DNA from: Torpedo marmorata | Lineage: Eukaryota | Direction: 5' to 3' | NCBI GenBank assembly: GCA_977017645.1 | Contig: OZ360222.1 | Location: forward strand, 123,504,001-123,568,000 | DNA length: 64,000 nt | In this document: positions 7,716 through 58,830 of the stretch, in pieces | Position numbering within the stretch: the first letter of the stretch is position 1 | How the letters are laid out: each line of letters opens with the position of its first letter | Position numbers and translations under genes: made by a program | The notes under the pieces: generated by a model | What the model saw: the letters and a program-made list of their open reading frames with translations, nothing else | Databases searched by the model: none | What the model was told of the DNA's origin: nothing

Positions 7716-9904
7716 TGGCCAAACAAAGGCAGAGCTGAAGAGGCTTCTTTTGACATGGATACCCATTGAGGGTTTTTTTTAAAAGCAGAGAGATAATCTG
7801 ACCCTCGCAGTTTTCCAGGGAGTGAGGTTCAAAATGCCTGACACAAGAAATTCCCAAGTTTGTCATGGAGGAGTTAAATTGTCGTAAGGTGAGCGATATC
7901 AAATGCGGGCAGAGAGAGGTGGTGCTGATGTAATGTGTGTGAGATGGTGGCTTGTGCATTTTAGTACGTTTTTGTTACCAAACTGCGTTGCCCTGATGAA
8001 CAAATGCACATATTTTAACAGGTAACTTGATCTTTGCAGTGGCTCATAAAGTTGAAAAATAGGCAGGGCTCCATTGATGGAAATAGCCGATAAGTGCTGA
8101 ATAAATGGGGTCTGGCATTAAGCAATGTCAAATCTTTGTTTTGCTATCACTGCTCTTTGTCTCCAAGGGCTCTTTTTCACGGGAACAAATAGATTGAAGT
8201 AAATAAAAGCAAAACAACAGCAGTGGCCCATATCATTGCAGCACACATGCTCACAAGTCAACTTCTGCAGGAAACTGGGAAATGCATGGTGTGAACCTTT
8301 TCCACTGCATCATTATCTTTCTCGCTCATTGTTTGCTGCTGAGAGTCCCAGATGCAATTTCCCCAAGTAAAAGCTTCCTGTTGCCTCCCTTTATAACATT
8401 GTGTGCATTTTCATCAAGATACTTAAGTTCATTGGATAAACAGAGGAAAGATGATGCAACATCTTAAATGAATACACGTGCACAATAACAATGCCCACAG
8501 ACACAGGCCTGTGGAGTGGTGGAAATTCCAAGCATGTCAGTGGGTTCTATAATTCTCGTGATAGATTAAAATAACCATCCACAAATACCATTGCAGCTTT
8601 AGAGCATAACAACTCGAAGCAGGATTGGACCATAAAACCTCCTGAGTTCCCTCCACCTTCTGATGGGAGCTCGGCTGAAAAACATAAGAAATGAAGCAAC
8701 AGCAAGCATTATGACCCTTAATGAGGCAAAATGGAGCTAAGACACTTGGCAGGACAACATTTGAACCAAACGAGGAGATATTACAACAGATGAGCAAAAG
8801 CTTGTTGCCCTCCTTAAAAAAAATATGGCATCGGGGTGTGGTGACATTTTGCTAGCTGCTTCTGGCATTTCTTCTCCTTGCATTCATTATAACTGTTCTT
8901 TATTATCGCACCACTTGCTGTACTTAAGTATGGGTTGACTTGCCTGGATAGCACGTAGAACAAAGCCTTTCACTGTATCTTGGTACTTGTGATAATAAGC
9001 AATTCAATTCCATTTGTTAGGAGTACCATTAGGAAAGAGGGTGAGGAAAGTTTGGAAGGAGAATTTCCTAACTTCGGGCCCTTGCAGCTGAAGACATGGT
9101 CGGCAAAGAAGGAACAATTGAAATTAGGGAGACGCACGGGGCTCGATGTCCTGGTTGAGGAGATGTGCAGATGGAGAGGCGCAGGCTTAGCAGGGGTTTT
9201 GAATAAAATGAGGAGGATTTTAAAATCAAGATGGTAGCAACCTAACAGTTAATATGGGTCAATGAGAGATGGTAGTTCAAGTTATTCTGATTAAAGCACA
9301 ATTGAATTGTTGACAGAATCGTGAATGAAGAATAGAAAGAAACGGTACACAAGAGCACTCGTCAGATTTATTCCATGTTACAAACTTCACTCATCTGCAA
9401 TAAATTACACCTTTTTTCCCCCAGAACAAAGCGCAAACATAATTCAACCATATTTGTTGGCACAAATAGATGAGGCTTTATGCTGATAACCATACCTAAG
9501 GTACTATGGCATGTCTGGCCACTGCTCAGGAGCTAGAATTGCAAAGAAGCAGCCTTGTGCCCCAAGGCTGAGACATCAGTTTCTGTTTACTGATGAGTGT
9601 TTTCCTCACCGTGAGAAAGCCTCTCGTGAGCTACGTTAAGAGTTAACTCCTCGTGATGCAATGAGAAAGTAAGTTATGAAAAATATTGCCCCCTCCCCAC
9701 CAAAAATAATTTTCCATTCAGATGTCTTCTTCAGAAGAGGACTCAAATGTTGACTTATTTTCAGGAAAAAATGTATGTTTAATTGATTGTAGGATTTGAG
9801 TGAGTTTTATATCTAATAAGTGATGCCTGATTATCAGAATAAAATTAATACTTTACTGCGTAATTATCCTCTGATTTCTTTTTAACAGGTAACTTGTATA
9901 TTAA

Positions 9905-10130
9905 AAGTTAAACAAGGGAGTCTGCTGATACTGTGGTTGAATGCAATACACAAATGTGCTGGAGAAACTTAGCAGATCATGCAGCATCCATAGGAAGTTA
10001 CAGGGAACCAATGTTTCAGGCCTAGGCCATTCGTCAGGTATGACGGGCTCAGGCCCATAACATTGGTTACCCTTTACTTCCTATGGATGATGCATGACCT
10101 GCTGAGTTTCTCCAGCACAATTGTGTATTG
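9905..10130. mobile_element. Penelope-derived fold-back (inverted pLTR) element with hammerhead motif
   Basis: Arms tgctggagaaacttagcag... and ...ctgctgagtttctccagca match the 3' terminus of the Penelope copies. Flanked by aacttgtatattaa (9891-9904) and aacttgtacattaa (10131-10144). Confidence 0.8.
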
Positions 10131-11239
10131 AACTTGTACATTAACAAGCCACGTAATGCCATATTTATTCATAAGTTGTCATATTTACAGGTAAGTTAGT
10201 ATATTTTACACCCATGTTACAGTTCTCCCAGTTAGATACTGTAGCCTGGAACTTACATAGCACCATTCTTCTCTTTCCAGTGCCAGGTGAATGAAAATAT
10301 GAGGTGAAATGAGACTATGATCATTTCCGATAATTTTGTTGATGACAGTTCTTTTCTTCTCACGAATTCTGCTCAACACATTGAGTTCCTCTGCAGATTG
10401 TTATTTGCTACAGATTCCAGCATCTGCAGTCTCTCATGTCTCTCTGATTATTTAGTGTCAGCTTGGAAATTTGTCCAGACATTTCCTGGAGTGAATCACG
10501 CTTGCGTGTTTGACGCAATTTCTGCTTAGATGTGTATTAAATTACATCATTTACTGTGCAGGGCTCCAAACAAAATGCTCTTTGCCAAGTTGCTGCAGCT
10601 TCCCCACTACCCACTGATTAATTGCCCTTATGAATTTCTAAACACTTTTTGGCAATGAAAACTGCACACGTGAGATTTAATGTTTTGTGTATTTTAATAA
10701 AACTCCACAATAGAATGTTTCACTTTCCAATAAAAGCAGCCTTCATCAAATTGACCCACACAATTCAACAAAATGAGAGGTATTTGTGACCAGCTTGATG
10801 AAACATTCATCTGCAGGAACAGATAAGTAGAATGGGCTTATATTCAGTGTTCAATTTCCAATAATCTTACTATGTAATCCAATCTCAGAAATTTTCATTG
10901 ATTTTCAGGTAGCTTCACTTGATGTAGCTTTCGAAAAATATGCATGTTGATATGTTATTTAGAAATATTGACCTGGATTTTGCAGTCAGTGGTGGCAGCA
11001 GTGTTCAGTGCTGATCTTATTTTCACTCTTTCCGACCTCTGTTCTTGGCACAGCAGAACAGTGACGCCATCAGTCAGACCAAACAGCCAATCAGATTGAA
11101 GAATTTTCACCAATAGCATGCCAGGAAAAAAAACACAATTTCAAACATTGTTCAAGTAAAAATTGAAATGTACGCATGAAATTATCATGGAAACAAAAAT
11201 ATCAAGCATTTTAAAAGTAAAAGTAACAATGATTTAATA

Positions 11240-11614
11240 CAGTGGTTTTCAAACTGCCCCCCTAAACTCACATTCCACCTTAAGCAATCCCTATGCCATA
11301 AGTGCTCTGTGATTAGTAAGGGATTGCTTAAGGTGGTATGTGAGTGGAAAGAAAAAGTTTGAAAACCACTGTTTTAATCGTACATAATTGAATCGTTATG
11401 TGCACGGTTTCATAACTCCAAAGGAAATGGGCCAATGACAATTTTTCTCAAGCAAAATATTTCAGTAACAATTGGGTCTGGAGCAGTGGTTCTCGACCTT
11501 CGCTTTCCACTCACAAACCACCTTAAGTAATCCTTTATTAATCACAGAGCACTTATGGCATAGGGATTGCTTAAGGTGGAATGTGAGTTTAGGGGGGCAG
11601 TTTGAAAACCACTG
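11240..11614. mobile_element. Non-autonomous hAT (Charlie-like) MITE with composite structure
   Basis: TIRs CAGTGGTTTTCAAAC and GTTTGAAAACCACTG. 8-bp TSD ATTTAATA at 11232-11239 and 11615-11622. Inverted arms of about 131 bp. Confidence 0.92.
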
Positions 11615-14527
11615 ATTTAATATGACAAAAAATAAAGAGTTACAAACAACACATTTAAAATTAGATTTTGAGGCCAGAGAGGTTGTTAAGCAGTAATTGA
11701 GTGTTAAAGATTCTTAGCTTGCACTACAATGTGTAACAATTTTTAGAGCTTTTTGCAACAAAATTGGGTTGTACATACCTAAAGTTCTCATCAGTTCACT
11801 GATTCTGCTGATTATGCGACAAAAAAAGCACCCTGTGGAGGACAGAGAATCGCTGACATGCATTTGCTGGATTTCCACCTACTCCAGATGTTTCATGGTG
11901 TGACGATGACAAACTTTGACAGATAGACATCATTACAACTCCAAATCTAGGCCAATCATTTATCTCATTTTAATCATTCCAGGGTCCTTTGTAAGTCCTT
12001 CCCTTTGCCAGTTCCAAATCCCTCCTGACATAACTGTGGCAAATATAGATCACTGCACTTAATATTGCAACATTACATTCTCTACCTTAAAGAATTGGTG
12101 GAAAGATTCTGGAGATTCGGGATTGGAGCTTCTTCCAGTGACTTGGGAGTTCTTTTCTGAGTTGCATGCATGGAGCCATTAAATGAGACAATATAAATCA
12201 CAGAATAAGAAAATAAAATAAAAATTTCTGGCTGTGTGCAGGAAACATTCAGACTCCTCCACCTCCACTCCCCCTGTTCAAGTGAACATAATGAAATGAT
12301 GAGAACTCATAGCGCTAGGCTAAATCTTTGCACTGTACTCTATCATCATTTCTGTTTGAGTTTAGCAAACGACAATTTTGTTATCGGAATAAGCTGTACA
12401 CAACAAGCTCACTTATCTCCAGCATGTGTTGTTCAGTTAAATAGCATCTAAGAAATTGTTCATCCACTATGTCAATAGTTAATAAAAAGAGCTCATTTTA
12501 GTGAATTGCAGTCAAGTTTACACAATGAATAGAGGAATATTTGGAAGCATGTTTAAAGGCCTGGAATGCAGTCACCAGCTTCTCCGAACAGCACACTGAT
12601 GTGCCCTTGCTTTACTTCTCCCTGCCTCTCGTTCACTTGTGAGACTGTAAAAAAACAGAAGACTTTATAACCCATACTACAACTATGATCAGAGTTATAC
12701 ATTAATACAATAAATCAAAATGGTTTGCACTCTAAATGACACTGACCAAAGAAGGCCATATTAGTAGTTGGAAGTACAGGAGCTGCAATCAGTGATGTGG
12801 GCCAGTTAGTGGTGTGTGATTTTTAACGGCAGAAGCAGGGGGGATGGACAGGAGATCTGCTGGATTTAAAACTCAATGTGGGGGCGGGGGGGGGGGGGGT
12901 GGGGAAATATGAAGTGCTACCAATCTATAAAGGTATTGATTTTAGTCATTGTTGGTACTGTGAATTGATGGTTCTGGGTTCACCCTTTCCCCCTTGGGAC
13001 TGATGTCTGTTTATTTTGAGAGGATGCCCTTATTCAAAGAAGAGTCTTCTGTGAAGGACTGAACACTTGCTGTAGGTGACTGCCTAATTGGAATGACCAC
13101 AAGGGCAGGTTTCATTGTAGTTTACCGGCTGATATTGAGCTTTTGAATATGGTGTTAGCTTTGTTAGATTGGATAATTACTCTCTTGAAAAGGGTAAATG
13201 CTACAGGACTTTAACCACTTGTGAATTCAATAAGATTGCTTTTGTACTACAGCAGCAGCATAGAGATTTTTTTTGTAAATAGCATAATAAATTCAGTGAC
13301 CCTTTTGAATATTATCGTCACAATTTTTGAATGAAAGTTTGTCAAGTTTGTACGAGATTATTTAAAGGATGAAATGAATGAAGGAATATTTCATGTTTCT
13401 ATCTGTTTATCTAATTCCATTCAATGGCCTATAGATAAGGAGTTTTACTCGTTTAATGGAAGGCTTAAAATGATGCAATGTTTATTTTTGAAAGCTGGAT
13501 AGAAAATCAGGATGTGCTTTGAGAGGTTAAAGAATCCATAATCTCTTTTTAATCTACATAATTTCAAAACTATAGTTCCAAATGTCCAACAGAAAATTGC
13601 TACCAAAGCAGTAATTGGAAACAGGCAATGTGAAAGGTTGTCTGGCATATTCATTTCAAAATTTGAAAACACTTTGAACCCTGATGATTCAGCTAAAAAT
13701 AACTAATGTTATGCTGTTTGCCTGGAGATTTGTTTAACTGAGCCATCTCTAAAACTCAAATAAATGTCTAGCTAGATATGTTTTTCCATATGTCACAAGT
13801 TCCCTATAAATTTGTTCCTTTCTTTATTTGGCTGGGTGAATTTTATCTCCCAAAACAAAATGTCTTCCCTATACCCTTCCCCTTTCCCTCTCCTCCAATA
13901 CTCATTTCCTTCCATTCTTCTGAAGCATTTGACTCCATACGGCTACTCAATGACTACCTTGCTTAAGTGGCCAATGGCAGGCAGTCTAGGGAAGCAGTTT
14001 GGTTGATCAAAAATATTCTGTTAACCTATGTGCATTTCTTTCCCCATACATCGACAGTTGCTGATAAAAATGGATAATGGAGCAAACGGTTGGTGTCTTC
14101 TTTGATGTTCATTCATGCTAATGGCCAGCAAAGATGGATGAGTAGTAATCAGCCGAGTGAGCTCAGGTTGACATCTCATAATGTTGTGGTGTTGAAGTTA
14201 ATAATGGTGCTTTTATTCCGGCACTAACTGAGATCAGCAAAAAGAGAATGGGTCCGAGATTGAATCAGAGTTTCTGCTGATTAATACAGCTGTGAAAGGA
14301 GACTTTTCTTCTTTTGTTTCAAAATTAAATCTTTTCCTAAATAAAATGTCTGACACCACAATGAGAGAAGTGAACAATTTAATGATTGGCAGAGGACATG
14401 TGCCAATTTTTAATTTTGGTGAGAAACATGCTCATAGCTGTTGCAAGACCTTGTTTCTTTTTTCTTTGGTAATTTGCATTTTGGATGAGGTGCTAAATCA
14501 AGAGGCCACCTGCTTTTTAAAAATGTA

Positions 14528-17854: not shown

Positions 17855-19590
17855 AACAGTAATGCACAAAGATCTTCACTAAAGGAACCCTTCCATATCA
17901 TGGGGATGAACTCCCAGATGAACTCAATGCCTTCTACGCCTGACTTGACCACAAGAACGAGAAAGAACCACCATTGCACACCCCCATGTCCCCTAATGAT
18001 CCTCTCCTGTCTGTATCCGAGGATGATGTGCGAGCTGCATTCAGGAGAGTGAACCCGAGGAAAGCATCCAGTCCGGACAGAGTACCCTACAGAGTATTTA
18101 AAACCTATGCTGACCAACTTATCAATGTATTTACGGATATCTTCAACATCTCACTCCAGCAGGGTGTGGTACCCACCTGTTTCAAACAGGCATCAAACGT
18201 ACTGGTGCCCAAGAAGAGTGTGGTAACCTACCTAAATGACTACCGACCAGTGGCACTCACATCAACAGTGTTTTGAAAGGCTGGTGTTGAAGCATATCAG
18301 CTCCTGTCTGAGCAGTGACATGGATCCGTTCCAATTCACCGATCGTAGCAACAGGTCTACGGCGGATGTCATCTCACTGGCTCTACACAAAGCCCTGGAA
18401 AACATGAAAAGCAAAGATGCATACATCAGGATGCTCTTTATTAACTACAGTTCGGCATTTAACACCATCATCCCCTCAAAATTGATCAGCAAACTCCAAG
18501 ACCTGGGACTCAACACCCCACTGTGTAATTGGATCCTTGATTTCCTCACCTCCAGACCACAATCAGTGACGATTGGTAAGAACATCTCCTCCACAATCTC
18601 CAACTGTACCGGAGCACCACAAGGCTGTGTTCTTAGCCCCCGCTCTACTCGCTATACAGCTATGACCGTGTGGCTCGGTATGACAACAACACTATCTACA
18701 AATTTGCTGACGATACCATAGTAGTGGGTTGTATAAAAAGGGGCGATGAGTCAGCATACAGGATGATGATTGAAAACTTGGCTGAATGGTGCACCAACAA
18801 CAACCTCGCACTCAATGTCACCAAAACCAAGGAGCTGATTGTTGACTTCAGGAAGGGAAAACCAGAGGTGGAGAGGGTGACTAAATTTAAGTTCTTGGGA
18901 GTCACTATCTCGGAGGATCTTTCCTGGACCGAACACACTAATGGCATTGTGAAGAAAGCACGTCAGCCTCCTCTACTTCCTCAGGAGTTTGTGGAGGTTT
19001 GGCATGACATCGGAAACCGTGGCAAATTTCTACAGCTGTGTGGTGTAAAGTGTGCTGACCATCTGCATCATGGTCTGGTATTGGGACACCAATACCCCTG
19101 AGTGTAAATCACTGCAAAAGGTAGTGGACACAGCCCAGGACATCACAGGGAAAACCCTCCCCACCATCGAAAACATCCACAGGGAACGCTGCCGTTGGAG
19201 AGCAGCAGCAATCATCAAGGATCCATATCACCCAGCACATGCTCTGTTCTCGCTGCTACCATCAGGAAAGAGGTATAGGTGTCACAAGACTCGCACCACC
19301 AGGTTTAGGAACAACTGCTACCCCTCCACCATCAGACTCCTCAACAACAAACTCAATCAAGGACTCATTTAAGGACTCTTACTTTTGCACTTTATTGATT
19401 TTTTTTGTTCTCTCCATATTCCACAGTCATTTTGTTTACATTTCTTTATTTGTTTACATGTGTACGTTGCGTACAGTTTTTTTTTGCAATACCAATAAGT
19501 GGTAATTCTGCCTTACCCGCAGGAAAAAGAATCTCAGGGTTGTATGTGATGTCATGTATGAACTCTGATAATAAATCTGAAATCTGAAAT
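17855..19590 (+). mobile_element. Rex1/Babar LINE, 5'-truncated and frameshifted
   Basis: [35 protein letters not shown] and LLPSGKRYR motifs, with an (AAATCTG)n tail. Confidence 0.92.
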
Positions 19591-33675: not shown

Positions 33676-34676
33676 AATCAGAATCAGAATTTATTGTCAT
33701 GAACAAGTCATGAAATTCGGTGTTTTTGCGGCAGCATCATAGTGCAAACATTCATATTATAACCATCTTATGACATTACTATAAAAAAATATATATAAAT
33801 AATAGTGCATGAAAAGTAAGGCAGTGTCTTTGGTTCATTGATTATTCAGGAATCTGATGGCAGCGAGGAAGAAGCTGTCCTTGTGCTGTTGAGTGCTCGT
33901 CTTTAGGTTCTTGTACCTTTTTCCCGATGGTAGCAGAGTGAAGAGGGCATGGCCTGGGTGGTGGGGGTCTTTGAGGATAGAGGCTGCTTTTTTAAGACAC
34001 CACCTCATGTAGATGTCCTCGATAGAGTGAAGTCTGGTGCCTGTGATATCACAGGCCGAGTTAACAACCCTCTGGAGTTTATTCTTGTCCTGAGAGTTGC
34101 CGCCTCCATACCAGGCAGTGATGCAACCAGCCAGAATGCTCTCCACGGTACACCTGTATAAGTTTACGAGAGTCTTCGGTGACATACCGAATCTCCTCAG
34201 ACACGTCACAAAGTATAGCCGCTAGCGAGCTTTCTTTGTAATTGCATCAACGTGGAGACTCCAGGACAGATCCTCGGAGATGTTGACACCCAGGAATTTG
34301 GTTCTTGGCCCTCTCCACTTCTGAGCCTTCGATGAGGACTGGGTCGTGTTCCCCTGACTTCCTCCTGAAGTCCACAATCATCTCCTTGGTTTTGCTGATG
34401 TTGAGTGCAAGGTTGTTTTCGTTACACCATTCAACGAGCTGATCTATCTCCCTCCTTTATGCTTCCTCATTGCCGTTTGTGATTCTGCCGACAACTGTGG
34501 TGTCATCAGCAAACTTGTAGATGGCATTGGAATTGTGCCTGGCCACACAGTCATGGGTGTATAACGAGTAGAGCAGTGGGCTAAGCACGCATCCTTGGGG
34601 TGCACCTGTGTTGATAATCAGTGAGGAGTAGACGTTGTTTCCAATTCGTACTGACTGTGGTCTTCCGATGAGAAAG
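33676..34676 (-). mobile_element. Rex1/Babar LINE, 5'-truncated
   Basis: (AATCAG)n tail on +. ORF 33835-34209 (ESILAGCITAWYG...LLPSGKRY). Near-identical to the + copy at 37542-41194. Confidence 0.92.
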
Positions 34677-37541
34677 ATGAATGAATTGATAACACACTTA
34701 GAGGTCTTGGATATCAGGAATAGCTGACATGGATCGCAAGCTCACGAGTGGCATGGAAAGATAATTCAAGCATATTATTTTGAAATAGATTGAGTGAAAA
34801 GGATAAATAGAGGCAAGATTAAATAAATGGAAAGTAAATGTGAGCCAGAAAGCTTGGCGCACAAACTGTGATCGCCACGTGGAGAGAGTGTTGAAATGAC
34901 TGAAAATATCAGAAACACATAAGGGCCAATTGAATGCTTCTTCCTCTTCTCATGACCAACCATCACAACTGTTGTTCCTGACATTAGTGGTACAATGGTA
35001 GTAACCTAGGGCTGATTCTGGTTTGGCCCTAACTGGATACTGCAACATTCAAATTAGTGTATTTGTGTGAATGAATGTCCTTCCTTATCTGAACTGACCA
35101 TATGATAGTGAGCAGGCTGATTCTAAGCTTTCCAATTTAAGGTCAGCAACACCTCCCTGACCACCTTGACAATACACATCTGTGATCCACATTACCTAGT
35201 CAGTCACTATGGCAGCTCTAATGTAACTTCCTGATGCAGTTTAGATCCAAAATGCCAACTAAACGTTTGCCTCCACAGATGCTGCCTTACATAATGAATT
35301 CCTCCAACAATTTGCTTTTTACCATGCCCTCTTGTTAAACAACACTTTGATGCATTACAAAAAAATCAGGCTGAACCTATCGTAAATAGTTTCTATGGCA
35401 TCTTGTTAATAAATAGAGCTGTAGAGAAGGCAATTAACTACATTCTTTGAATCACCACTGAATATAACTTTATGATTAACATATTAGTTCAGAATTTCTT
35501 GAAGAAAAATATGCTTAAAGGCTACTTTATCTTCTCAGTCTTACTGACAATTATCTTCTGCCCAAAGAATTTGTTCTTCCCACTTGCATTACATTTCCAC
35601 ACCACTTACCTCCTGTACATGATGAAAATACGATCTAAAATCCGCAGATGCTAATTTTAGAACAAATAATCAAACAATTATTTTGAGGGTAACTGATAGC
35701 TTGGTTAAATACAAAGTTTAGAAAAATATTTTGAGTTAAATTATTAAGAAGACCAGAATAACTTCGCTTTGAAAAACAAATTCCTCTGCAGAATATTTTC
35801 ATTGGATACCTTGCCAGGCTCTGACAACAATTTAAACTCACTGTGACTTTCCGGCTTGTCACAGCTTTCTTTTATTAAGTATAGAGGAAAACAACACTCA
35901 GACTTTCCTCATAAGCCTTGGATACAGTAAAAAAAAATGGCATTCAAACTCTTGTAGTTTAAAAATAAAAAACATGTGTGAATTATGCAATAAAGCAAAA
36001 TGAAATATATTATTCTAATTAATAAAACGTTTGTATCACTGTACCTCACATCGATATCTGTTTTTTTTTGTATTTTGTAAGCATGTGGCATAGGTCTCAA
36101 TATCATTAGTGATGTGGCACATGATGCCGCATTGGTGGTGGTGCTGTTGGGCTTCATCATGTTGGACTCGAGGTGCTGGATTTCTCATGAGACTTGTAGG
36201 TGCTGAGGTGTCATGTTTGTGTACTTCTATGTATACGGTGACACACCACCTCCTTCCAAGGAGGTGGTGGGTCACCCTATACATAGAATTGGCTCTGGCA
36301 ATTGATTTTGGATGTGTTTAAACCCACATCTTGGCAGGCTGACACTTGGACACTATCAGCTCACCACACTGTCACAGCCTTATTACTGCTGGCAGTAAAT
36401 CCTCAAAGAACACTGAGCACTCCGACAAATAGTTTCGTGACTGAGCTACATCTCCTAGATGGAGAAAGTATAAAAAGTGGATAAAATACAAGGCCAGTCT
36501 GAAAAGTATTTTGGTTTACAACCGGGTAGAAGATAACAGGAAAGCCGAATGGAACTGTCCAAAACAGGATGTCCAGCATACAAACAGGTCATTCAGCTAG
36601 CTTGGTTCACGGGTGGGCCGTTTTGAGAGCAGATTGCTCCCATTCATCTAAGATGAAATATCTGGCAAATAAAAATATCAGAAACAATTTTCTAGTTATG
36701 ACACTAAAATCAAAGTGTTATCAGATAACTTGTAATTAATTAGAAATTAGTATCAATGTAAAGTACCGGTAAGTAAGCAACAAAATCAAAACAAAAGATG
36801 TTGGAAAATTGTCATCAGTGATAAATGCAGATTATTGCATTGATGGCTTATTGTAGTCACTCGTTGTTACCTCAATGGAATGGAATAATAGGAGGGGGTG
36901 GGGGGCATCAATTCAAGAGTAACCATTTAGCATCAGCACCCAAAGAAGATTTTTTATCTTGTTTTGTTGCATTATATTAGTTGTAATTGACTAGAAAGGA
37001 ATATTTTTACAGCATGTGGTTCTCCACCCTGTTGATGTGGGGGTCCTCATCTGTTATAGCAGGTATCCGTTATTGGAAAAATCCTGCACTCTGTGGGGTA
37101 ATTTTCTGGGTATTGATGCCTCTCTGTGAAAGATGCAATAGTTCATGCAAAATAATTCAGCTGGGAGTGGTGATAATTTCTGTTTTCTCTCAAATTTAAA
37201 GAAAAACACCTTTCCCTCTGTCACTGTGCCAAGACATTTAAAGTTATTCATTCGTGCTCTTTCAAATTAACTTTCATCTTTGTGCATTTCTGGCATATTT
37301 GTATGAAGTGACCTCTATGGTGGTTCAAAATAGTTTTTAGTTTACAATAGTAGAATGCTTTTCTCCTTCCTCCAGAAACTCTTATTCTGATTTACTCTGA
37401 GTCAGCTCTGTACCCGAGCATGTCCACAGCGCAGAGCTTGGATGAGATACCTGACTCTGCTCTCTCAGCCTGCTTTAGAGCGGGTGAACTCCCATGCTTT
37501 GACATGTCTAATCCAATGAAAACAAAAGCTTGGGTGTGTTG

Positions 37542-40500
37542 GCGCAAGGCGTCAGGCCCTGATGGCGTACCTGGCAGGGTACTGAAAATCTGCACCAACC
37601 AACTAGCCGGAGTGTTCACGGACATTTTCAACCTCTCATTGTGGCAGTCAGAGGTTCCCACCTGCTTCAAAAGGGCATCAATCACCCAAGAAGATTAGTG
37701 TGAGCTGCCTCAACGACTACCGCCCAGTAGCACTAACCTCTACTGTGATGAAATGCTTTGAGAGGCTGGTCATGGCCAGAGTTAACATGTACCTAAGATC
37801 TGGACCCACTGCAATTCGCCTATCGTCCCAATCGCTCCACAGAAGTTGCAATATCGTTGGCTCTCCACTCAGCTCTGGATAACCTCGAAAACAGCAATTC
37901 ATACATACGGCTGCTCTTCATCGACTACAGCTTGGCCTTCAATACCATTATTCCCTCAGTGCTGGTCAAGAAGCTACAAACTCTAGGCCTCTGTACCCCC
38001 CTCTGCTCCTGGATCCTTGAATTTCTCATTGGAAGACCACAGTCAGTACGAATTGGAAACAACGTCTCCTCCTCACTGATTATCAACACAGGCGCACCCC
38101 AAGGATGCATGCTTAGCCCACTGCTTTACTCGTTATACACCCATGACTGTGTGGCCAGGCACAATTCCAATGCCATCTACAAGTTTGTCGATGACACCAC
38201 AGTTGTCGGCAGAATCACAAACGGTAATGAGGAAGCGTACAGGAGGGAGATCTATCCTGGAGCCTCCACGTTGATGCAATCACAAAGAAGGCTCGCCAGT
38301 GGCTATACTTTGTGAGGTGTCTGAGGAGATTCGGTATGTCACCGAAGACTCTCGTAAACTTATACAGGTGTACCATGGAGAGCATTCTGGCTGGTTGCAT
38401 CACTGTCTGGTATGGAGGCGCCAACTCTCAGGACAAGAATAAACTCCAGCAATATAGCTAGATTAATAAGTTTAATTAATTTATATAAAAAGAAACAGGA
38501 CTTACCATTGGTTGTAACGCTGGATGCAGTAAGGCTTTTGACAAATTAGAATGGAATTTTTTATTTAAGGTGTTAGAAAAATTTGGTTTTGGGAATACTT
38601 TTATAAATTGGATTAAAACTATATATAGAGAACCTACAGCTAAAGTAATTACAAATGGACAAATATCGCCAACATTTCCTTTAACGCGTTCTACGAGGAA
38701 GGGATGTCCCCTGTCACCAGCCCTATTTGTTTTGGCAATAGAACCTTTGGCTGAATTGATTAGAAAAGATCCTAACATAGTAGGGATTAAAGTAGGTATG
38801 GAAGAACATAAGATTAGTCTGTTTGCAGATGATGTATTAATATATATGACGAAATCTACTACATCACTTCAACAACTAGCTATTATATTAAAAGAATATG
38901 GTGAAATATCTGGTTATAAAATTAATTCAGATAAAAGTGAGATAATGGCTTTATCTCAAGGTGATTATACTAGATGTAGAGAGGTCACGGAATTTAAGTG
39001 GGCAAAAGAAGGAATCAAATATTTGGGAGTTAAAGTGGATACAAAATTAGAAAATTTGTATAAATTAAATTATGTACCTTTATTTATGAAAATAAAGAAA
39101 GACTTGGAAAATTGGAAAGATTTGCCTATAAGTTTAATGGGAAGAGTAAATTGTATTAAGATGAATATTTTTCCAAGAATTCAATATCTTTTTCAATCAA
39201 TTCCTTTCGGAATTCCAAAATTTTTTTTTAAAGATTTAAAGTTTATTATTAGGAAATTTTTATGGAAAGGGAAGTTAGCAAGAGTAAGTATGGATAAATT
39301 AACATGGAATTATGAGATGGGAGGATTGCAACTTCCTAATTTTCAATATTATTATAAAGCAGCTCAATTAAAATTTGTTAATGAATTTTTTGATTTAGCT
39401 AAATCTTCTGCTTGGATTAATATAGAATTAAATAATATAGGAGAAAATTATAAAGAGGATATTATTTATAAGTGTAAACTCTAAATTATTATCAGTAAAA
39501 AAGAAAAATTCACCGATTATTAAACATTTGTTGGAAATATGGACACAAGTAGATAAAGAAATAGGTGGAAAAGGGTTAATTTCTTTAAATATGCCATTAT
39601 ATCAAAATCCACTTTTACCATTTACTATTAATAATCAGTTATTGAAATTATGGTTTCAAAAAGGAATTAAGAATTTTAAGGATTGTTTTGAGGCTGGAAG
39701 ATTTGTTACGTTTCAAAGATTGAAGGACAAATTTAATGTATTAGATAATACATGGTTACCTTATTATCAAGTTAAAGCTTTTTTGATTGAGAAATTAGGG
39801 GATGATTTGATTGCACCAAGACAAAATGAGTTAGAATTATTAATAACTAAAGCAAATGTCAATAAGTTTATTTCTCAAATGTATAAATTATTTCAGAGAA
39901 AAATGCCTAAAGTAGGATTACATAAATCAAGATTAAAATGGGAATTAGATTTAAATGTTAATATAGCTGAAAATCATTGGAAAGATTTATGTAAATTAAG
40001 TATGACTAAAGTTATTAATGTTAGATATAGATTAGTACAATATAATTTTTTCCATCAATTATATTTAACACCAAAAAAATTAAAGAAATTTAATCCGACA
40101 TTATCAGATTTGTGTTTTAGATGTAAGAGTGAAGTAGGTTCTTTTGTTCACTCTACATGGTTATGTCCAAAAATTCAAGATTTTTGATTGAAAGTTAAGA
40201 ATTTTTTAGATAGAGTTTTCAATGTTATGTTTCCAATGGATCCTATGTTATTTTTATTCGGAGATATTATAAACTTTAGTATTAGGAATAGATTGAATAT
40301 GTATCAGGTAGAATTTTTACGAATTGCTTTAGCCGTTTCAAAAAAATGCATTGCTATTACTTGGAAAACAGATTTAGATTTAAGTTTAGAAAGGTGGCAT
40401 GCAGAACTTCGTTCATGTATACCATTAAAAAAGATTACTTATAATTTACGCAATAAGTATCATTCTTTTTTGAAAATTTGGAGCCCATATATGAGAGTTA

Positions 40501-45380: not shown

Positions 45381-45424
45381 TGAAAGGACACTTACAGTAT
45401 CAAAGCTTGGATAAAATGTTAAAC

Positions 45425-46090
45425 ACAAACGTGCTGGAGAAACTGAGGTCACACAACATCCAATAGGAAGCAACGTTTCAAGCCTGGGCCCTTCGTAAGA
45501 TTTGTCAGGTCACGATGAAGGGCCCAGGTCCAGTGGCGTCACGAGGTTTGGTGTCACCCAGTGCGGTAACTCATGGTGTCACCCCCCCCCCCCCATGGAC
45601 CAAGTGTACGAGTGTACCGAGCGTAGAAGAAACAGGTGTGTGTTCCTTGTATGTCCGGGTTGGCGGCCGCGGCGCTGAGCGGGTGGGGGGGGGGGGGTGG
45701 GGCTCTGCCCGGAGCACATTAGAAGGTTCAAAAAGTAAATTAGCATAGTTTTAGCCTTGTAGGTATATTGATACATGTATGATGGGCTTACGAAAATTTT
45801 TTTTTGTTGTTATAACTAACTACAGGGATATTTTTATAAAAAATAATAAATTTCTGCTGAAACACTGCACAAAAATTTTATAGACAGTCATTTTGATTTC
45901 ACCCCCTCTGATGGTCACTAGGGGGATGCGGTCTGCATCCCCCGCACCCCCCTTGTGACGCCAGTGCCCAGGTCTGAAATATTGTTTACCCTTTGCTTCC
46001 TAATGGATGCTGTGTGATCTGCTAAAGTTTCTCCAGCACGTTTATGTATTGCACTTACCCCAGCATTGGCAGACTTTGTTGTTTAACTCC
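45425..46090. mobile_element. Penelope-derived fold-back element interrupted by a hAT MITE
   Basis: Arms gtgctggagaaact... and ...agtttctccagcac. Imperfect flanking direct repeat taaaatgttaaac / tgaaatattaaac. Confidence 0.75.
45531..45966. mobile_element. Non-autonomous hAT MITE
   Basis: TIRs CAGTGGCGTCAC and GTGACGCCAGTG (one mismatch). 8-bp TSD CCCAGGTC at 45523-45530 and 45967-45974. Confidence 0.9.
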
Positions 46091-46104
46091 TGAAATATTA
46101 AACT

Positions 46105-48770: not shown

Positions 48771-49544
48771 GTTGATAACCTACTAAGACTGAAAATGTGA
48801 GAATGCTGGAAACACTCAGCTGGTCAGGCAGTGTCTGTGCAAAGGCAAGCAGTTAATGATTCAGATCTGAGACCCCTCACCAGAGCTGCTGAACAGTCTG
48901 TCAACGTGACAAAGGGTCTCAAATTGGAAGTATTGAGTACAGTTGCAGCCTGACTTGCTGACATCTGTGAATGTTCGGCCTGGATGACTGTGGGGATAGG
49001 GAGAGGTTAATCCCAGCACTCATCTGAAAACAAGAGAAATAACTTTAAAACTGAGTGACGCAGCGGCAGGAGTGAACGGGTGACCTGGGATAAAGGCAGC
49101 AGAATTTTGAATACATTCAAGCTTCTGTTGGATTGAATGAGGGAAGCCAACAAGGAGAGCATTGGAATAACGATGAAAGGTGTGAATGAGGCTTTCAGCC
49201 CCAAGGAGATGAGGGGGTAAGGGGGTCATGTGATGTTACAGAGCTGGAAATAATGATGCTCTTAGTAATTACATGAACGTGAGTGCAGTAAAAGTCTGCT
49301 CAGGCTTAAAGTTACAACCTAACCCAACCACAGCCAATCCCAATGCAACCCAAGCCTGAGGAACCAACCTGACTCAAGCTGTATCAGGGGCGTATTGGCA
49401 AAATTGGAAAGAAAATTTGACTGTGATGCACACACATTGCTATTGATGAAGAAGGGAGGACACATCTGCATTACTAAGCAAATTATCCATTCCTAGGTAA
49501 AGTATTGAGCCGGCTGACCCAACCCAAATATTTTCTTAGAACAA

Positions 49545-49790: not shown

Positions 49791-50200
49791 TAAAGTATAC
49801 TATTTGACCTGCTGAGTTTCTCCAGTATTGTCTTTTTACTCTAAATGCATCTGACCTGTTCCAAACCCAAAGTAGTTGAGTCTCATCAAACTGGAATGGA
49901 GAAGCCACGCTCCATAGTGTAGTGTCATTCAGTGAATAGGAATAGAAAGTCTGGTTGGGGAACACCTCTATCATAAACACACAGAATGCCTTGGATATCT
50001 AATAACTTAATATGCACTATGCTGTTGCTCAGTCATGTTCTTATTGCAGGGAAGCAGGCGTGAGATGCTACATGGCCTCTTCCTTTTCCTGTGGTCTTTT
50101 ATTTTGGACTGGGGAAAGCCAACTATACACACCACATGTGATTGGGATTCAAACAACTTCTGAGTCTGGCATTCCCCTGTCAAACATCTGGTTTAACATT

Positions 50201-50401
50201 GAGATACAAGAGACTGCAGATGGTATAATCTGAAGCTGAAAAACCAATCTGCTGGAGGAATTCGAATGGTTGAGCAGCATCTATGGAGAAAAAGAGATGG
50301 TCAAGATGGTCGAGACCTTGCTTTGGAAATGACAACTATCCCTTTGCTTCTGAAGATGCTGCTTGACTTGCCGAGTTCCTCCAGCAGTTTGTTTTTTTGG
50401 C
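50201..50401. mobile_element. Older Penelope-derived fold-back element
   Basis: Arms ctgctggaggaattcg...gcagcatc and gatgctgc...cgagttcctccagcag. Perfect 14-bp direct repeat TCTGGTTTAACATT at 50187-50200 and 50402-50415. Confidence 0.75.
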
Positions 50402-50989
50402 TCTGGTTTAACATTTGTGACTCCATGAGAGGAAGACTATTGGAGTTACCATTCGTATTCTCCGGCACTGTTTTGTGGCAGTCTTAAGTGTAAATTTGTA
50501 AACAACTGTCATGTTGATTTGCTTTATGAAACAAGCTGTGAAGACAATAATGAAAGCTTCTTTCCAAATCCTCATTTTACCTGGTAAATTGGTACGATGT
50601 AAATTGACAGAGAATGCCCAGATAGTAAATAATAACATTGGACAATGAAAATTTTGCTTCCTGAACACTTTTGGGTGTATTTTATGGATTGTGGACTGCT
50701 GATCACGAAAATCACCTTAAAATTTTCCTATCACGTACTGCTTTTTGGATATAACCTATTTTTGTGATTTCCTGTCATATTTTACATCTACTAGTATATT
50801 GCCCACAAAGCATACAAAACCATGAAGTGCAACATGTCATTGAAAATTAATTTTCTGTGTTCACAATTGGACTTCTTCCCTGCTGATCTTGGTGCAGTCA
50901 GTAATGAACATGGTAAATGGTTTCACCAGGACATTGCGATCATGGAAAAGCGGAATCAGGGCAACTGGAATCTATCAATGCTGGCCGAC

Positions 50990-52417
50990 ATGGGTCCCAG
51001 CTACGCCTGCCTGTTTGTGGGCTTTGTGGATCAATTCATGCTGCAAGCCTACACAGGCAAGACCCCTCATCTCTTCCTCCGTTATATCGACGACTACATC
51101 GGGGCTGCCTCATGCACCCGCGATGAGCTTGTCAACTTCATCCACTTCGCATCCAACTTCCACCACGATCTCAAACTCACCTGGTCCATCTCCGTTAACA
51201 CTCTCTCCTTCCTGGATCTCTCTGTCTCCATCTCGGGAGACAAGCTTTCCACTGACATTTACTACAAACCCTCCAACTCCCACAACTATCTGGACTACAC
51301 TTCCTCACACCCTGTCCCCTGCAAGGATTCCATCCCCTTCTTTCAATTTCTCCGTCTCCGCCGCACCTGTTCCCAAGATGAGGTCTTCCAGTCCAGATCT
51401 TCTGAAATGTCTGCCTTTTTCCACAAACGTTGCTTCCCCTCCACCACCATCAACTCAGCCCTCACCCGCATCTCCTCCATTTCCCGCTCATCTGCCCTGG
51501 CCCCCTCTGCCCCCAGATGCAACAAACATAGAATCCCCCTCATCCTCACCTACCACCCCACCAGCCTCCGCATCCAACACATTATCCGCCGGAATTTACG
51601 GCACTTACTACAGGATCCCACCATCAGACACATTTTTCCTTCTCCTCCCCTCTCGGCCTTCTGCAGGGACCACTCCCTCCGCGATTCCCTCGTGCACTCA
51701 TCCCTCCCCACCCATCGCACCCCCGGCACCTTCCCCTGTGCCCGCAGGAGGTGCAACACCTGCGCCCACACCTCCCCCCTCACCACGGTCCGGGGCCCCA
51801 AAAAGGCCTTTCAAGTGAAGCTACACTTCACTTGTACATCCAGAGAACTTATTTACTGCATCCGGTGCTCCCTTTGTGGCTTTCTCTACATCGCAGAGAT
51901 TGGTCGTAGATTGGGAGATTCCGTCCGCAACAACAGTGACCTCCCAGTAGCCAGCCATTTCAATTCCGAGTCACACTCCCACACTCACATGTCTGTCCAT
52001 GGCCTTATGTACTATCCCACCCAGACTACCCGCAAATTGGAGGAACGACATCTCATTTTCCATCTGGGCACTCTCCAGCCAGATGGCATTAACATTGACT
52101 TATCTGCTTTCCACTAAACCTGCTTGTCTTTTCCTTCCCCTCCCCCCTCACCTGTCCTTCCTGTTTTTTTCCACCCGCCCAGCCATCCCTCCTCCCCCTC
52201 TTTGCTGCTGTCCCCTCCCTCCTTTCTCCACCTATCATTTCCTGCCTTTGCCAACCCCCCTCTTTCCCCCCCTTACTCTTTTGTTCGGACGCCTGCCGGC
52301 ATTTTCTCATACTTTGATGAAGGGCTCAAGCCCGAAACGTCGGTTATGTATTTCTACCTTTGCTACATAAAAGACACTGTTTGACCTGCTGAGTTTCTCC
52401 AGCATTTGTGTTTTTTA
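50990..52417 (+). mobile_element. Penelope-like element (Neptune type), 5'-truncated: RT, Cys linker, GIY-YIG endonuclease, pLTR
   Basis: MGPSYACLF, RYIDD, FLDL, CARRRCNTC and LIYCIRCSLCGFLYI motifs. TSD ctggccgac (50981-50989) and ctggctgac (52418-52426). Confidence 0.93.
52307..52348 (+). ncRNA. Minimal type I hammerhead ribozyme motif in the Penelope terminal repeat
   Basis: TTGATGA-A-GGGC(TCAA)GCCC-GAAAC-GTC. Variant C3 position, 4-bp stem II and palindromic ACGT stem III. Predicted cleavage after 52341. Confidence 0.7.
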
Positions 52418-53337
52418 CTGGCTGACTGTTGTTGGGCACTGACATGAGAGGCATTAGATGCTGAGTGCAAATGAAAATCAGCGGCAAGACACTTGTAGGT
52501 CAGTTGAACTAACGCAATATGCCAGCATCATTATGTGATTAAACATGCTAAATTTAATAAAAGTTAATTTAATGTTTCTCCAACTTCCTACGTGATACAG
52601 CAAATCTGAAATTATCTTTGTGTTCAGGTTGAAGTTGTCTATCACAATCCCCAATTTTTTTCAGGAAGCAACCCCTTTGAAAAATTTAACAAGCTGTTGG
52701 AGAACTTATTATTTTCTTAATCCTACATCACCAATTAAGTTCAAAAAATAAGAACGTTGTATTTTAGACAACAAACAGGATGGATTATCTGTTGGAATAT
52801 ATTCAATAGAAATTCTGAATCTTGAACTACTCTTAGATATTTTGGGAAATTCAGGAAGCACAACTTTATATTTGGAGTTTCCTTTCCAAGAGGCTTTAGC
52901 TATAGTTAACAGTTCTCAGTTTAGGCATATTTTTAACTGCCAAGTGCATGTTTTAGCTCATTCCTAAAATAATTCCTGTTCAGCTCCTGTTCTCACTGTG
53001 ACTTGTAGTATATAGTGTGTGACTCGTCAGAGGAGAAGAACTTTAGAGAGCAGCAAAAGGTCCTTAAGCTCACCTGAATCATTCTTTTGTGATAGATCCT
53101 AACCCCACCTCCCCACCCTCTCACAAGTTCCTCATTCCTTTGCTCTTGGCCAGTTAATGTAATTGCCAATATGGTCTATTTATACTTTCTCCTTAAATAG
53201 ATTCCATCTGCTACAATGTTTCATCCTGATAATATTTTGATCAGCTGAATTATGAAATCCCTTTAACTTTTGAGTGTTCTCATCTCTTAGTTTTTCACCA
53301 TTGTGAACCACTGTTTGAATGGTACCAGTCCATAAGA

Positions 53338-54200: not shown

Positions 54201-54929
54201 TAGTCACGCCTTCATTAAGGCTGAAAACTTTTGCATTGCTCAAGAAAATCAAATCTAACTGTCTTTACCATTCCTTATAATTTAAATTTAAATTTAGAAC
54301 TCAGAAATGCCTGATCTTAACTTCTAAATTTTCTCACGCTGAAGTAAACAGAGAAAGATTTCCTCCTGGGCAAATCTACAATTTCACCTTTAATTCTAAT
54401 CTAAAAGCATCTTACTTTTACAACTGCACATGTTATCCCAGCTGATTTCTGGCTAAAGTCTTGAATAGCAACTGTATCATTTATTTTGTGGTTGAACTTT
54501 CTGTTCATTTAACTCAGCCCCTTATTTGCCCTTTCAGCTACAACCAAGCAATGATAAGTCACCTGTAAAGTAGCAGCAACAGAATTCTACCACGGGATTT
54601 TGCAGCTCAGAATCATGCCATCCTGCACATGAACCTTCTTCATACCTCACGTTGCCCTATCAACATATAATAACTTTGGAACTAGGCAAAATCATAAATA
54701 TTCATGGTCCAATCTTTGTAGTTCTGAGCTTTCCTCTCTCAACAAAGCAATTTGTATCCCTTTTATTTGTCTAAAGAGAATTGATTTGGTTTCTGCAATT
54801 AACCACCCAAAACCAATTTAATTAAGAGCCATAAAGTGTGTTCAGAGTGCTGGTAGGTGTTTGTGTTGCAGACATTAACTCTAATGTCATTGGAGCATCA
54901 AGACCAATCATTCTCCCAATTGAGTTAAA

Positions 54930-55055
54930 CAGGAAAGTCTGCACACACTGTAGTGCAATACACAAAAAAGCTGGAGAAACTCAACAAGTCACACAGCATC
55001 TATAGGAAGCTAAGAGCAACTGATGTTTCAGGCCTGAGCCCTTTGTCAAGGTATT
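54930..55055 (-). mobile_element. Penelope terminal-repeat fragment with decayed hammerhead motif
   Basis: The minus strand reads cttgacaaagggctcaggcctgaaacatc...gagtttctccagc. Confidence 0.7.
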
Positions 55056-56744: not shown

Positions 56745-58830
56745 GTAAAACACGAAAATCTGTAGACACCGTGGTTGAAGTGAAAAACACAAATGCTGGA
56801 GAAACTCAGCAGGTCAAACAGTGTCTTTTATGTAGCAAAGGTAGAAATACATAACCGACGTTTCGGGCTTGAGCCCTTCATCAAAGTATGAGAAAATGCC
56901 GGCAGGCGTCCGAACAAAAGAGTGAGGGGGGGAAGGGGGGGTTTGGCAAAGGCAGGAGATGATAGGTGGAGAAAGGAGGGAGGGTACAGCAGTAAAGAAG
57001 GGGGAGGATGGATGGCTGGGTGGGTGGAAAAAAACAGGAAGGACAGGTGAGGGGGGAGGGGAAGGAAATGACAAGCAGGTTTAGTGGAAAGCAGAAATGT
57101 CAATGTTAATGCCATCTGGCTGGAGAGTGCCCAGACGGAAAATGAGATGTTGTTCCTCCAATTTGCGGGTAGTCTGGGTGGGATAGTACATAAGGCCATG
57201 GACAGACATGTGAGTGTGGGAGTGTGACTTGGAATTGAAATGGCTGGCTACTGGGATGTCGCTGTTGTTGCGGACGGAGATGAGGTGCTCAGCAAAGCGA
57301 TCTCCCAATCTACGACCGGTCTCTCCGATGTAGAGAAAGCCACAAAGGGAGCACCGGATGCAGTAAATAAGTTCTCTAGATGTACAAGTGAAGTGTAGTT
57401 TCACTTGAAAGGCCTATTTGGGGCCCCAGACCGTGGAGAGGGGGGAGGTGTGGGCGCAGGTGTTGCACCTCCTGCGGGCACAGGGGAAGGTGCCGGGGGT
57501 GTGATGGGTGGGGAGGGATGAGTGCACGAGTGAATCGCGGAGGGAGCGGTCCCTGCGGAAGGCCGAGAGGGGAGGAGAAGGAAAAATATGTCTGGTGGTG
57601 GGATCCTGTAGTAAGTGCCGTAAATTCCGGCGGATAATATGTTGGATGCGGAGGCTGGTGGGGTGGTAGGTGAGGATGAGGGGGTTTCTATGTTTGTTGC
57701 ATCTGGGGGCAGAGGGGGCCAGGACAGATGAGCGGGAAATGGAGGAGATGCGGGTGAGGGCTGAGTTGATGGTGGTGGAGGGGAAGCCACGTTTGTGGAA
57801 GGAGGCAGACATTTCAGAAGATCTGGACTGGAAGACCTCATCTTGGGAACAGATGCGGCGGAGACGGAGAAATTGAGAGAAGGGGATGGAATCCTTGCAG
57901 GGGACAGGGTGTGAGGAAGTGTAGTCCAGATAGTTGTGGGAGTTGGAGGGTTTGTAGTAAATGTCAGTGGAAAGCTTGTCTCCTGAGATGGAGATAGAGA
58001 GATCCAGGAAGGGGAGAATGTTATCGGAGATGGACCAGGTGAGTTTGAGATCGGGGTGGAAGTTGGATGCGAAGTGGATGAAGTTGACAAGCTCATCGCA
58101 GGTGCATGAGGCAGCCCTGATGTAGTCGTCGATATAACGGAGGAAGAGATGAGGGGTCTTGCCTGTGTAGGCTTGCAGCATGGATTGTTCCACAAAGCCC
58201 AGAAACAGGCAGGCGTAGCTGGGACCCATGCGGGTACCCATGGCTACTCCTTTGAATTGGAGGAAGTGGGATGAGTTAAAGGAGAAGTTATTGAGAGTGA
58301 GAACAAGTTCTGCCAGGCGGAGGAGGGTGGTGGTAGAGGGTGACTGGTCGGGTCTTTGGTCCAGGAAGAAGTGAAGTGCTTTCAGACCTTCTGTGTGGGG
58401 GATAAAGGGATTGGACATCCATGGTGAAGATGATGCAGTCCGGTACAGGGAATTTGAAGTCATTGAGGAGATGGAGGGCATTTGAGGTGTCGCGGATGTA
58501 GGTGGGGAGGGATTAGACCAGGGGAGAAAATATGGAGTCAAGGTAAGATTAAACTAGTTCAGTGGGACAGGAGCAGGCAGAAACAATGGATCTGCCCGGA
58601 TGGTTGGGTTTGTGTATCTTGGGTAGAAGGTAGAAACGGGCAGTGCTGGGGTGGGAGAGAATAAGGTTGGTGGCCGTGGAGGGGAGGTGACCGCACGTGA
58701 TGAGGTCGGAGATGGTGTTGGAGACAGTGGCTTGATGTGCAGTGGTGGGGTCCTGTGGGAGGGATCGGTAGGAGGAGGTGTCTGAGAGCTGTCGACTGGC
58801 CTCGGCAAGGTAGAGATCAGTACGCCAAAC
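56745..58830 (-). mobile_element. Penelope-like element (Neptune type), longer copy
   Basis: ORFs 57414-58541 and 57081-57404 contain GVAMGTRMGPSYACLF, RYIDD and YIGETGRRLGDRFAEH. One nonsense codon separates the two ORFs. Highly similar to 50990-52417. Confidence 0.94.
56850..56894 (-). ncRNA. Minimal type I hammerhead ribozyme motif in the Penelope terminal repeat
   Basis: Exact reverse complement of the 52307-52348 motif. Confidence 0.7.

What the first reader, a model, noticed from the sequence alone, without database searches (positions are those of the whole stretch)
9891..10144. Short fold-back retro-insertions built from Penelope terminal repeats, with back-to-back hammerhead motifs and TSDs
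Seen: a hairpin of about 225 bp whose two arms are inverted copies of the Penelope 3' terminus. The minus strand reads CTGACGA-ATGGCC-TA-GGCCT-GAAAC, a canonical hammerhead core, and a damaged core lies on the plus arm. A 14-bp TSD flanks it. The same design recurs at 45425-46090 and 50201-50401 with 13-14 bp direct repeats, and more faintly at about 48790-48970. In the TSD-flanked copies one arm is longer. Known: Penelope elements carry minimal hammerheads and often have an inverted 5' pLTR. Inference: these are either extreme truncation products or a non-coding, ribozyme-bearing family mobilised in trans by the Neptune RT, which would be misannotated as MITEs.
Basis: partly seen in the sequence, partly recalled or inferred. 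Interest (0 to 1): 0.7.

Follow-up and report, generated by a model that had tools for sequence, protein, structure and literature searches.

The report
Short head-to-head Penelope insertion stumps
These mirror-image hairpins are one-off, shortened insertions of a known jumping gene (a Penelope-like retrotransposon), not a new self-spreading family, and many of their arms stop at one spot just in front of the element's ribozyme, which likely marks the start of the RNA that was copied.

Summary
The hairpin is real. It has a tail-bearing arm (9906-10041), an inverted arm lacking the last ~34 nt (10042-10134), and a 14-bp TSD (13/14). It is the 3' end of a Neptune-type Penelope-like element, a layout already in print (inverted pLTR, 30-40-nt tail, TSD; opposite-strand minimal hammerheads). 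The 'propagating family' reading fails. Among 100 tail-anchored copies, lengths run from 33 to 990 nt, and 45 carry an inverted tail-less arm. The two arm lengths are uncorrelated, 21 of 45 inverted arms are longer than their partner, no junction is shared, and 13 of 13 genome-wide hammerhead-to-hammerhead junctions differ. Only one hammerhead core is present here; it is decayed and lies inside the stem. One unexpected feature: arms end preferentially at 133-138 nt, just 5' of the hammerhead (37 of 145 arm ends). This recurs in a younger family (5 of 80) and in bystander copies. Best model (inferred): both nicked target strands prime cDNA at the two internal start sites, and many cDNAs run off the RNA's 5' end. 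A second peak at the cleavage site did not replicate. The scan found the same design before in other genomes.

The parts
9891..9904 (+). left target-site duplication (14 bp)
   Evidence: 13/14 identical to right copy
9906..10041 (-). 3'-terminal 136 nt of a Neptune-type PLE (long arm), sense on minus strand; 9906-9939 is the unpaired ~34-nt tail
   Evidence: family positions 1-136, 86% identity
10010..10037 (-). decayed minimal type-I hammerhead motif; predicted cleavage between 10010 and 10009
   Evidence: numbering from PMC4209133 and recalled hammerhead convention
10042..10134 (+). inverted tail-less arm (family positions 127 to 35); last bases overlap the right TSD
10131..10144 (+). right target-site duplication
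45411..46103 (+). second head-to-head insertion of the same family, tail on the right, 13-bp TSD (11/13), interrupted by a MITE at 45530-45966
50189..50414 (.). head-to-head insertion of an older related PLE family, exact 13-bp TSD, no intact hammerhead core
48804..48970 (.). faint PLE-terminus remnant; TSD not established
   Evidence: one 28-nt match
54923..55054 (-). solo stump of the same family ending at position 136, with a near-identical direct repeat on both sides
50989..52419 (+). 5'-truncated copy of the younger sister family B (RT end, Cys linker, GIY-YIG), ending at the tail-less position
56745..58553 (-). longer copy of family B with tail

Best explanation
Each hairpin is an independent, dead-end insertion of the 3' end of a Neptune-type Penelope-like retrotransposon, with one tail-bearing arm and one inverted tail-less arm between target-site duplications, and it likely arises when both nicked target strands prime cDNA synthesis on element RNA. 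Inferred steps: (1) the GIY-YIG endonuclease makes staggered nicks about 8-18 nt apart; (2) one 3'-OH primes at the tail start site and the other at a second site about 35 nt further in; (3) each cDNA stops independently, often at about 136 nt, probably the 5' end of an RNA that begins just before the hammerhead; (4) the two cDNA ends are joined by end-joining, with microhomology or filler. Shown: polarity, asymmetry, TSDs, unique junctions, independent arm lengths, and the pile-up at 133-138.
For: 100 copies chosen only by an exact 30-nt tail motif (first 100 listed of 1006) have first arms of 33-990 nt. 45 of 100 carry an inverted arm whose outer end lies at positions 29-60, 34 of them at 34-41. 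Arm lengths are uncorrelated (rho -0.10, p 0.51) and within 3 nt of each other in only 7 of 45. The inverted arm is more than 10 nt longer in 21 of 45, so it holds sequence the first arm lacks. TSD score >=8 in 25 of 44 versus 1 of 128 shuffled pairs, lengths 8-18. 13 of 13 genome-wide junctions of the commonest class differ. Ends at 133-138: 23 of 100 first arms and 14 of 45 inverted arms, about 20-fold over background hazard; 10 of 53 copies classed as solo; 5 of 80 at the homologous 143-148 in family B, p 8e-5; 7 of 36 bystander arms, 5 of 34 after dropping one duplicate and one interrupted copy. PMC11167929 (main text read): the protein cleaves and extends both strands, two internal RT start sites bracket the tail, and a dimer is predicted.
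Against: No RNA-end data: the RNA-start reading of position 136 rests on the pile-up and on a match to a recalled initiator consensus that is easy to meet by chance. No excess of a cap-derived C was seen by eye after position 136. 25 of 100 family-A first arms and most family-B copies run past the site, and upstream pLTRs of body-linked B copies end at scattered positions (about 101, 126, 143, 180, 322, 480), so many templates extend further. The 133-138 window was chosen after seeing family A. Five inverted-arm start values were corrected by hand from BLAST chains. The sample is biased to younger copies on two contigs. Copies are about 12% diverged, so ends are good to a few bases only. The in vitro work is on a Poseidon element, not Neptune.
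Confidence: 0.72

Rival explanations
1. A non-autonomous fold-back master RNA is mobilised in trans, and later deletions at the hairpin tip diversify the junctions.
For: 37 of 45 inverted elements have both arms at or below 141 nt (counted); a BLAST-chosen set of 26 looks uniform; PLE-derived non-autonomous elements exist (PMC8557442 passages; bioRxiv 10.64898/2026.07.22.740005).
Against: All junctions differ. Often one arm is intact to 134-137 while the other is short, in either direction. Solo stumps with TSDs end at the same site. No shared flank among 45. The two arms of one element are no closer to each other than to arms of other copies (0.153 vs 0.153, n=39). No one-strand A-to-G excess overall (63 vs 67). 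Only 4 of 49 long-enough arms keep the full motif.
Confidence: 0.05
2. The first cDNA folds back and self-primes at a palindrome, or an antisense template self-primes (the proposal in PMC3846280), so the second arm is copied from the first.
For: A few junctions sit at the helix-II palindrome with 8-14 nt of overlap (L060, L094, L109); 7 of 45 are near-symmetric.
Against: 21 of 45 inverted arms are more than 10 nt longer than the first arm, some reaching coding sequence (L129; family B L176, L179). The fixed tail-less outer end is not explained by simple fold-back.
Confidence: 0.1
3. Twin priming is right, but the stop at 133-138 is a structural or sequence-dependent RT arrest at the 5' edge of hammerhead helix I (for example a hairpin in the nascent cDNA), not an RNA 5' end.
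For: The site coincides with the 5' strand of helix I in both families (positions and sequence). The share stopping there differs between families (23 of 100 vs 5 of 80), as sequence-dependent pausing could give.
Against: RT has already displaced the 3' strand of helix I before it reaches this point (reasoning); the edge is sharp, with few ends at 139-147.
Confidence: 0.13

Closest known systems
EN+ PLE insertion unit with inverted pLTR, optional tail and TSD (Adineta vaga Pen2/Pen2a, PMC3846280; overview in PMC8557442; passages read)
   Same: Head-to-head inverted 5'-truncated copy, 30-40-nt tail on one end only, TSD of about 9-14 bp.
   Different: Here the unit is often reduced to about 230 bp with no ORF, and arm ends cluster at one site; I found no such end census in the passages read.
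Minimal hammerheads of metazoan PLEs (Cervera and de la Pena 2014, PMC4209133; parts 1-2 of 4 read)
   Same: Type-I minimal core, unpaired base before helix II, palindromic helix III; the paper already notes dual motifs 100-700 bp apart on opposite strands, in a passage that relates most motifs to truncated PLEs.
   Different: The paper does not describe the TSD/tail anatomy or arm-length distributions in the parts read.
Poseidon PAc of Anolis in vitro (Frangieh et al. 2024, PMC11167929; parts 1-2 of 4 read)
   Same: Two internal RT start sites bracket the tail; both target strands are cut and extended; a hammerhead lies upstream of the tail.
   Different: Poseidon clade, ORF starts inside the hammerhead; here the Cys-linker (Neptune/Nematis) type, with the recognisable reading frame apparently starting after the tail. 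The paper does not model inverted insertions in the parts read.
Non-LTR retrozymes (bioRxiv 10.64898/2026.07.22.740005, part 1 of 5 and passages; PMC7229834, listing only)
   Same: Non-coding, pLTR-derived, hammerhead-bearing.
   Different: Retrozymes are head-to-tail tandem arrays with same-strand hammerheads; these are head-to-head, single and unique.
L1 twin priming (recalled; PMC12016303 and PMC2912911 seen as listings only)
   Same: Second target strand primes cDNA and gives a 5' inversion between TSDs.
   Different: In L1 the two segments are recalled as non-overlapping parts of one RNA; here both arms copy the same region from two fixed start sites.

Membership tests
EN+ PLE, Neptune/Nematis type | RT followed by C-terminal GIY-YIG with two cysteines between the motifs | tested here: met
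   Read by eye in translations of family A long copies and family B: YIDD in RT; IYCIxCxxCGxLYI. Pfam gave no hit for the two window ORFs and the PDB search gave none significant.
EN+ PLE, Neptune/Nematis type | CX2-5CxxC linker between RT and EN (PMC8557442) | tested here: met
   CARRRCNTC in family B. In family A only the region downstream of the linker was reconstructed; it is 76% identical to B at the DNA level.
EN+ PLE, Neptune/Nematis type | Placement in the Neptune clade by RT phylogeny | not tested
   No tree built; Neptune versus Nematis not separated.
EN+ PLE insertion unit | Tandem pLTR in long copies | tested here: met
   L194: 3879-nt unit followed by a 480-nt repeat of its end, with a TSD-like repeat.
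EN+ PLE insertion unit | Inverted 5'-truncated copy with one-sided 30-40-nt tail and variable TSD | tested here: met
Minimal type-I hammerhead | CUGANGA, G10.1-C11.1, GAAA, palindromic helix III, UH | tested here: not met
   Met in the family majority and in 4 of 49 copies; in this copy G10.1-C11.1 and the palindrome are lost.
Minimal type-I hammerhead | Self-cleavage | not testable with these tools
   Needs an in vitro assay.
Non-LTR retrozyme | Head-to-tail tandem units each with a hammerhead | tested here: not met
   No such array in the chains of 100 anchored copies; arrays elsewhere in the genome were not searched.
Non-autonomous propagating family (SINE-like) | Copies share internal structure and junction | tested here: not met
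MITE | Symmetric terminal inverted repeats and a short fixed TSD (recalled) | tested here: not met
   Ends are offset by about 35 nt; TSD 8-18 bp.

The most novel reading that the evidence does not exclude
The stumps are a genomic record of PLE integration chemistry: a dimeric PLE protein primes both target strands at once on element RNA, and the arm ends map the RNA's two natural 5' ends, a start just upstream of the hammerhead (position 136) and the hammerhead cut (position 104). The second would be in vivo evidence that the minimal hammerhead cleaves templates used for retrotransposition.
Probability: 0.25. Interest if true: 0.6.

Novelty: new member of a known kind. Interest (0 to 1): 0.3.

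Why it matters
How PLEs make their inverted repeats and one-sided tail is described as unresolved (PMC8557442, PMC11167929). Thousands of minimal copies with mappable arm ends give a direct prediction: two fixed starts, two independent stops, a preferred stop just before the hammerhead. This can be tested with RNA 5'-end mapping and the existing in vitro system. For annotation, these hairpins should be labelled PLE fragments, not MITEs or a new SINE. The layout itself is not new.

Tried and rejected
Rfam scan: no hammerhead among 6 weak hits. Pfam and PDB: no match for the PLE ORFs. Hammerhead-cleavage pile-up: 12 of 100 first arms and 6 of 45 inverted arms end at 98-106 (p about 1e-4 pooled, window chosen after seeing the data), but only 1 of 36 bystander arms (p 0.87) and at most 2 of 80 family-B copies fall near the homologous site; the region holds short palindromes and one end is followed by telomeric repeats; kept as inconclusive. 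Separate master for short copies: a few positions differ between 34 short and 25 long copies at nominal p below 0.05 (40, 45, 76, 120), none diagnostic. Same-source test of the two arms: no difference in distance, a slight excess of shared variants (20/2469 vs 460/104203), not interpreted. ADAR scar: 2 of 45 elements at nominal p below 0.05, as chance gives. MITE targeting of the hammerhead: suggested by 2 of 2 copies, rejected with 0 of 30 further copies at that site. Expression: no RNA holder listed; the four runs laid were contigs of uncertain kind and cannot show RNA ends. Spliced-intron boundary at 136: no AG there and no shared upstream sequence among copies ending there.

Full report
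Observation. The window is part of contig C11 of a 6.2-Gb genome; a cartilaginous fish is my guess from memory and was not tested. At the finding, the repeat finder gives arms 9944-10028 and 10046-10130 at 85% complementarity, and the minus strand folds at -134 kcal/mol, z = -17. A 14-bp direct repeat with one mismatch flanks the insert. Against a family reference, 9906-10041 is positions 1-136 counted from the element's 3' end, and 10042-10134 is positions 127 to 35 inverted. So one arm carries a ~34-nt tail that the other lacks. The sites at 45411-46103 and 50189-50414 have the same design with 13-bp repeats; the one near 48800 is only a faint remnant.

Hammerhead. The minus strand has CUGANGA and GAAA boxes at 10037-10014. 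In family register this copy has lost the G10.1-C11.1 pair, which PMC4209133 calls highly conserved, and the helix-III palindrome. The plus arm begins past the start of the CUGANGA box, so there is probably no second core, only a junction. Because the arms are on opposite strands, one transcript holds one sense motif, and it is paired inside the long stem. Only 4 of 49 arms long enough to hold the motif keep it whole, as neutral decay would give. Rfam does not detect it.

Parent element. Long copies of the family run from the tail through a 3' UTR into a GIY-YIG frame, and one inverted arm reaches the RT (L057). A younger sister family B, present in the window at 50989-52419 and 56745-58553, has RT, a CX4CxxC linker and GIY-YIG; one copy (L194) shows a 3879-nt unit with a tandem 480-nt pLTR. 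By the features in PMC8557442 (passages read) this is Neptune or Nematis type; no tree was built, and Pfam did not hit these ORFs.

Family or by-product. A BLAST with the hairpin returns look-alike hairpins (4560 candidates, 40 scored), which is a selected sample. I therefore took the first 100 of 1006 exact matches to a 30-nt tail motif. First arms run from 33 to 990 nt; 45 have an inverted tail-less arm, 2 an inverted arm with a tail (left out of the pair counts), and 53 were classed as solo. Five inverted-arm starts were set by hand from BLAST chains. The outer end of the inverted arm is nearly fixed (34 of 45 at 34-41). The inner ends are free: rho -0.10, within 3 nt in 7 of 45, inverted arm longer by more than 10 nt in 21 and shorter in 11. 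Two coordinate pairs recur twice, and their junction sequences differ. A genome-wide pattern for junctions with both arms reaching the hammerhead gave 13 matches, all different, each with its own flanks. No two of 45 elements share a right flank, and there is no strand-biased A-to-G signal. TSDs score at least 8 in 25 of 44 versus 1 of 128 shuffled pairs, lengths 8-18. In family B the same layout occurs mostly with long arms; about 16 of 80 have an inverted tail-less arm and 2 of 80 are short hairpins (read). These are independent insertions, not a propagating family.

End pile-up. 23 of 100 first arms and 14 of 45 inverted arms end at 133-138, about twenty times the background hazard. The window was chosen after seeing these data. 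It holds in solo copies (10 of 53; several are followed within 9 nt by their TSD), at the homologous 143-148 in family B (5 of 80, p 8e-5), and in bystander arms (7 of 36; 5 of 34 after dropping a duplicate of L120 and a copy cut by a younger insertion). The site lies just 5' of CUGANGA, on the 5' strand of helix I, and fits a recalled initiator consensus. Many copies pass it: 304 exact matches run through it. A weaker peak at 98-106 borders the predicted cut at 104/105 (18 of 145 ends) but did not replicate (1 of 36).

Mechanism. Shown: both arms read as antisense cDNA from the flank inward, start at two fixed sites, and stop independently. Known: the Anolis Poseidon protein cuts and extends both strands and starts RT at two internal sites that bracket the tail (PMC11167929, main text read). 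Inferred: both nicked ends prime, one at each site; cDNAs started near the 5' end of an RNA run off at about 136 nt, those on longer templates stop at random; the ends are then joined with microhomology or filler. I put this at about 0.72. RT arrest at helix I instead of an RNA end gets 0.13, fold-back self-priming as proposed in PMC3846280 gets 0.10, and a trans-mobilised master gets 0.05.

Relation to what is known. The inverted pLTR, one-sided tail and TSD are described in PMC3846280 and PMC8557442 (passages), PMC2377424 and PMC8969392 (passages). Opposite-strand pairs of minimal hammerheads 100-700 bp apart are noted in PMC4209133 (parts 1-2 of 4). Retrozymes are tandem and same-strand (bioRxiv 10.64898/2026.07.22.740005, part 1 and passages). 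Five literature searches listed no paper on arm-end pile-ups or twin priming in PLEs; subscription papers, Repbase and supplements were not seen. The scan's own notes hold 116 findings with the same words in at least 20 genomes, and of the 8 shown several reach the same reading. I had recorded my reading before opening them; they are unchecked and are not counted as support.

Verdict. A real feature, a known layout, and not a new family. The one useful extra is the preferred stop just before the ribozyme, which makes the PLE integration model testable. Interest 0.3.

Noticed in passing
window 45530-45966: A 437-bp MITE with 12-bp terminal inverted repeats and an 8-bp TSD (hAT-like, recalled) sits in helix II of the PLE hammerhead; a second copy in L165 sits at the same PLE site, but 0 of 30 further copies do (294 exact end matches genome-wide).
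   Followed up: yes
L073, after family position 100: The PLE stump is followed directly by (TTAGGG)n repeats at an interstitial site, suggesting telomere-repeat addition during repair.
   Followed up: no
family B, e.g. window 52324-52330 and L141-L170: The younger family reads U at core position 3 of the hammerhead (UUGAUGA, a U3-G8 wobble) in most of the 30 copies printed, so it spread with a non-canonical core.
   Followed up: no
L149, L185, L211: Family B insertions end in tandem repeats of a 22-35-nt internal segment just before the TSD, suggesting repeated re-priming at the cDNA end.
   Followed up: no
L182, L184, L202: Complex family B insertions that jump between the 3' end and the ORF-start region, one with an inverted piece starting at position 143 and running through the tail into the body.
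   Followed up: partly
window 50989-52419 and 56745-58230: Two 95%-identical family B copies face each other 3' end to 3' end 4.3 kb apart, one with and one without the tail; whether they are one rearranged event was not resolved.
   Followed up: partly
window 38489-40187 and 18236-19505: Fragments of non-LTR RT ORFs (Pfam RVT_1); related pieces at 33724-38449 and 42293-43116 form long inverted pairs.
   Followed up: no
window 11234-11358 / 11496-11620: A 125-nt inverted repeat at 93% with a 137-nt spacer, probably a MITE.
   Followed up: no
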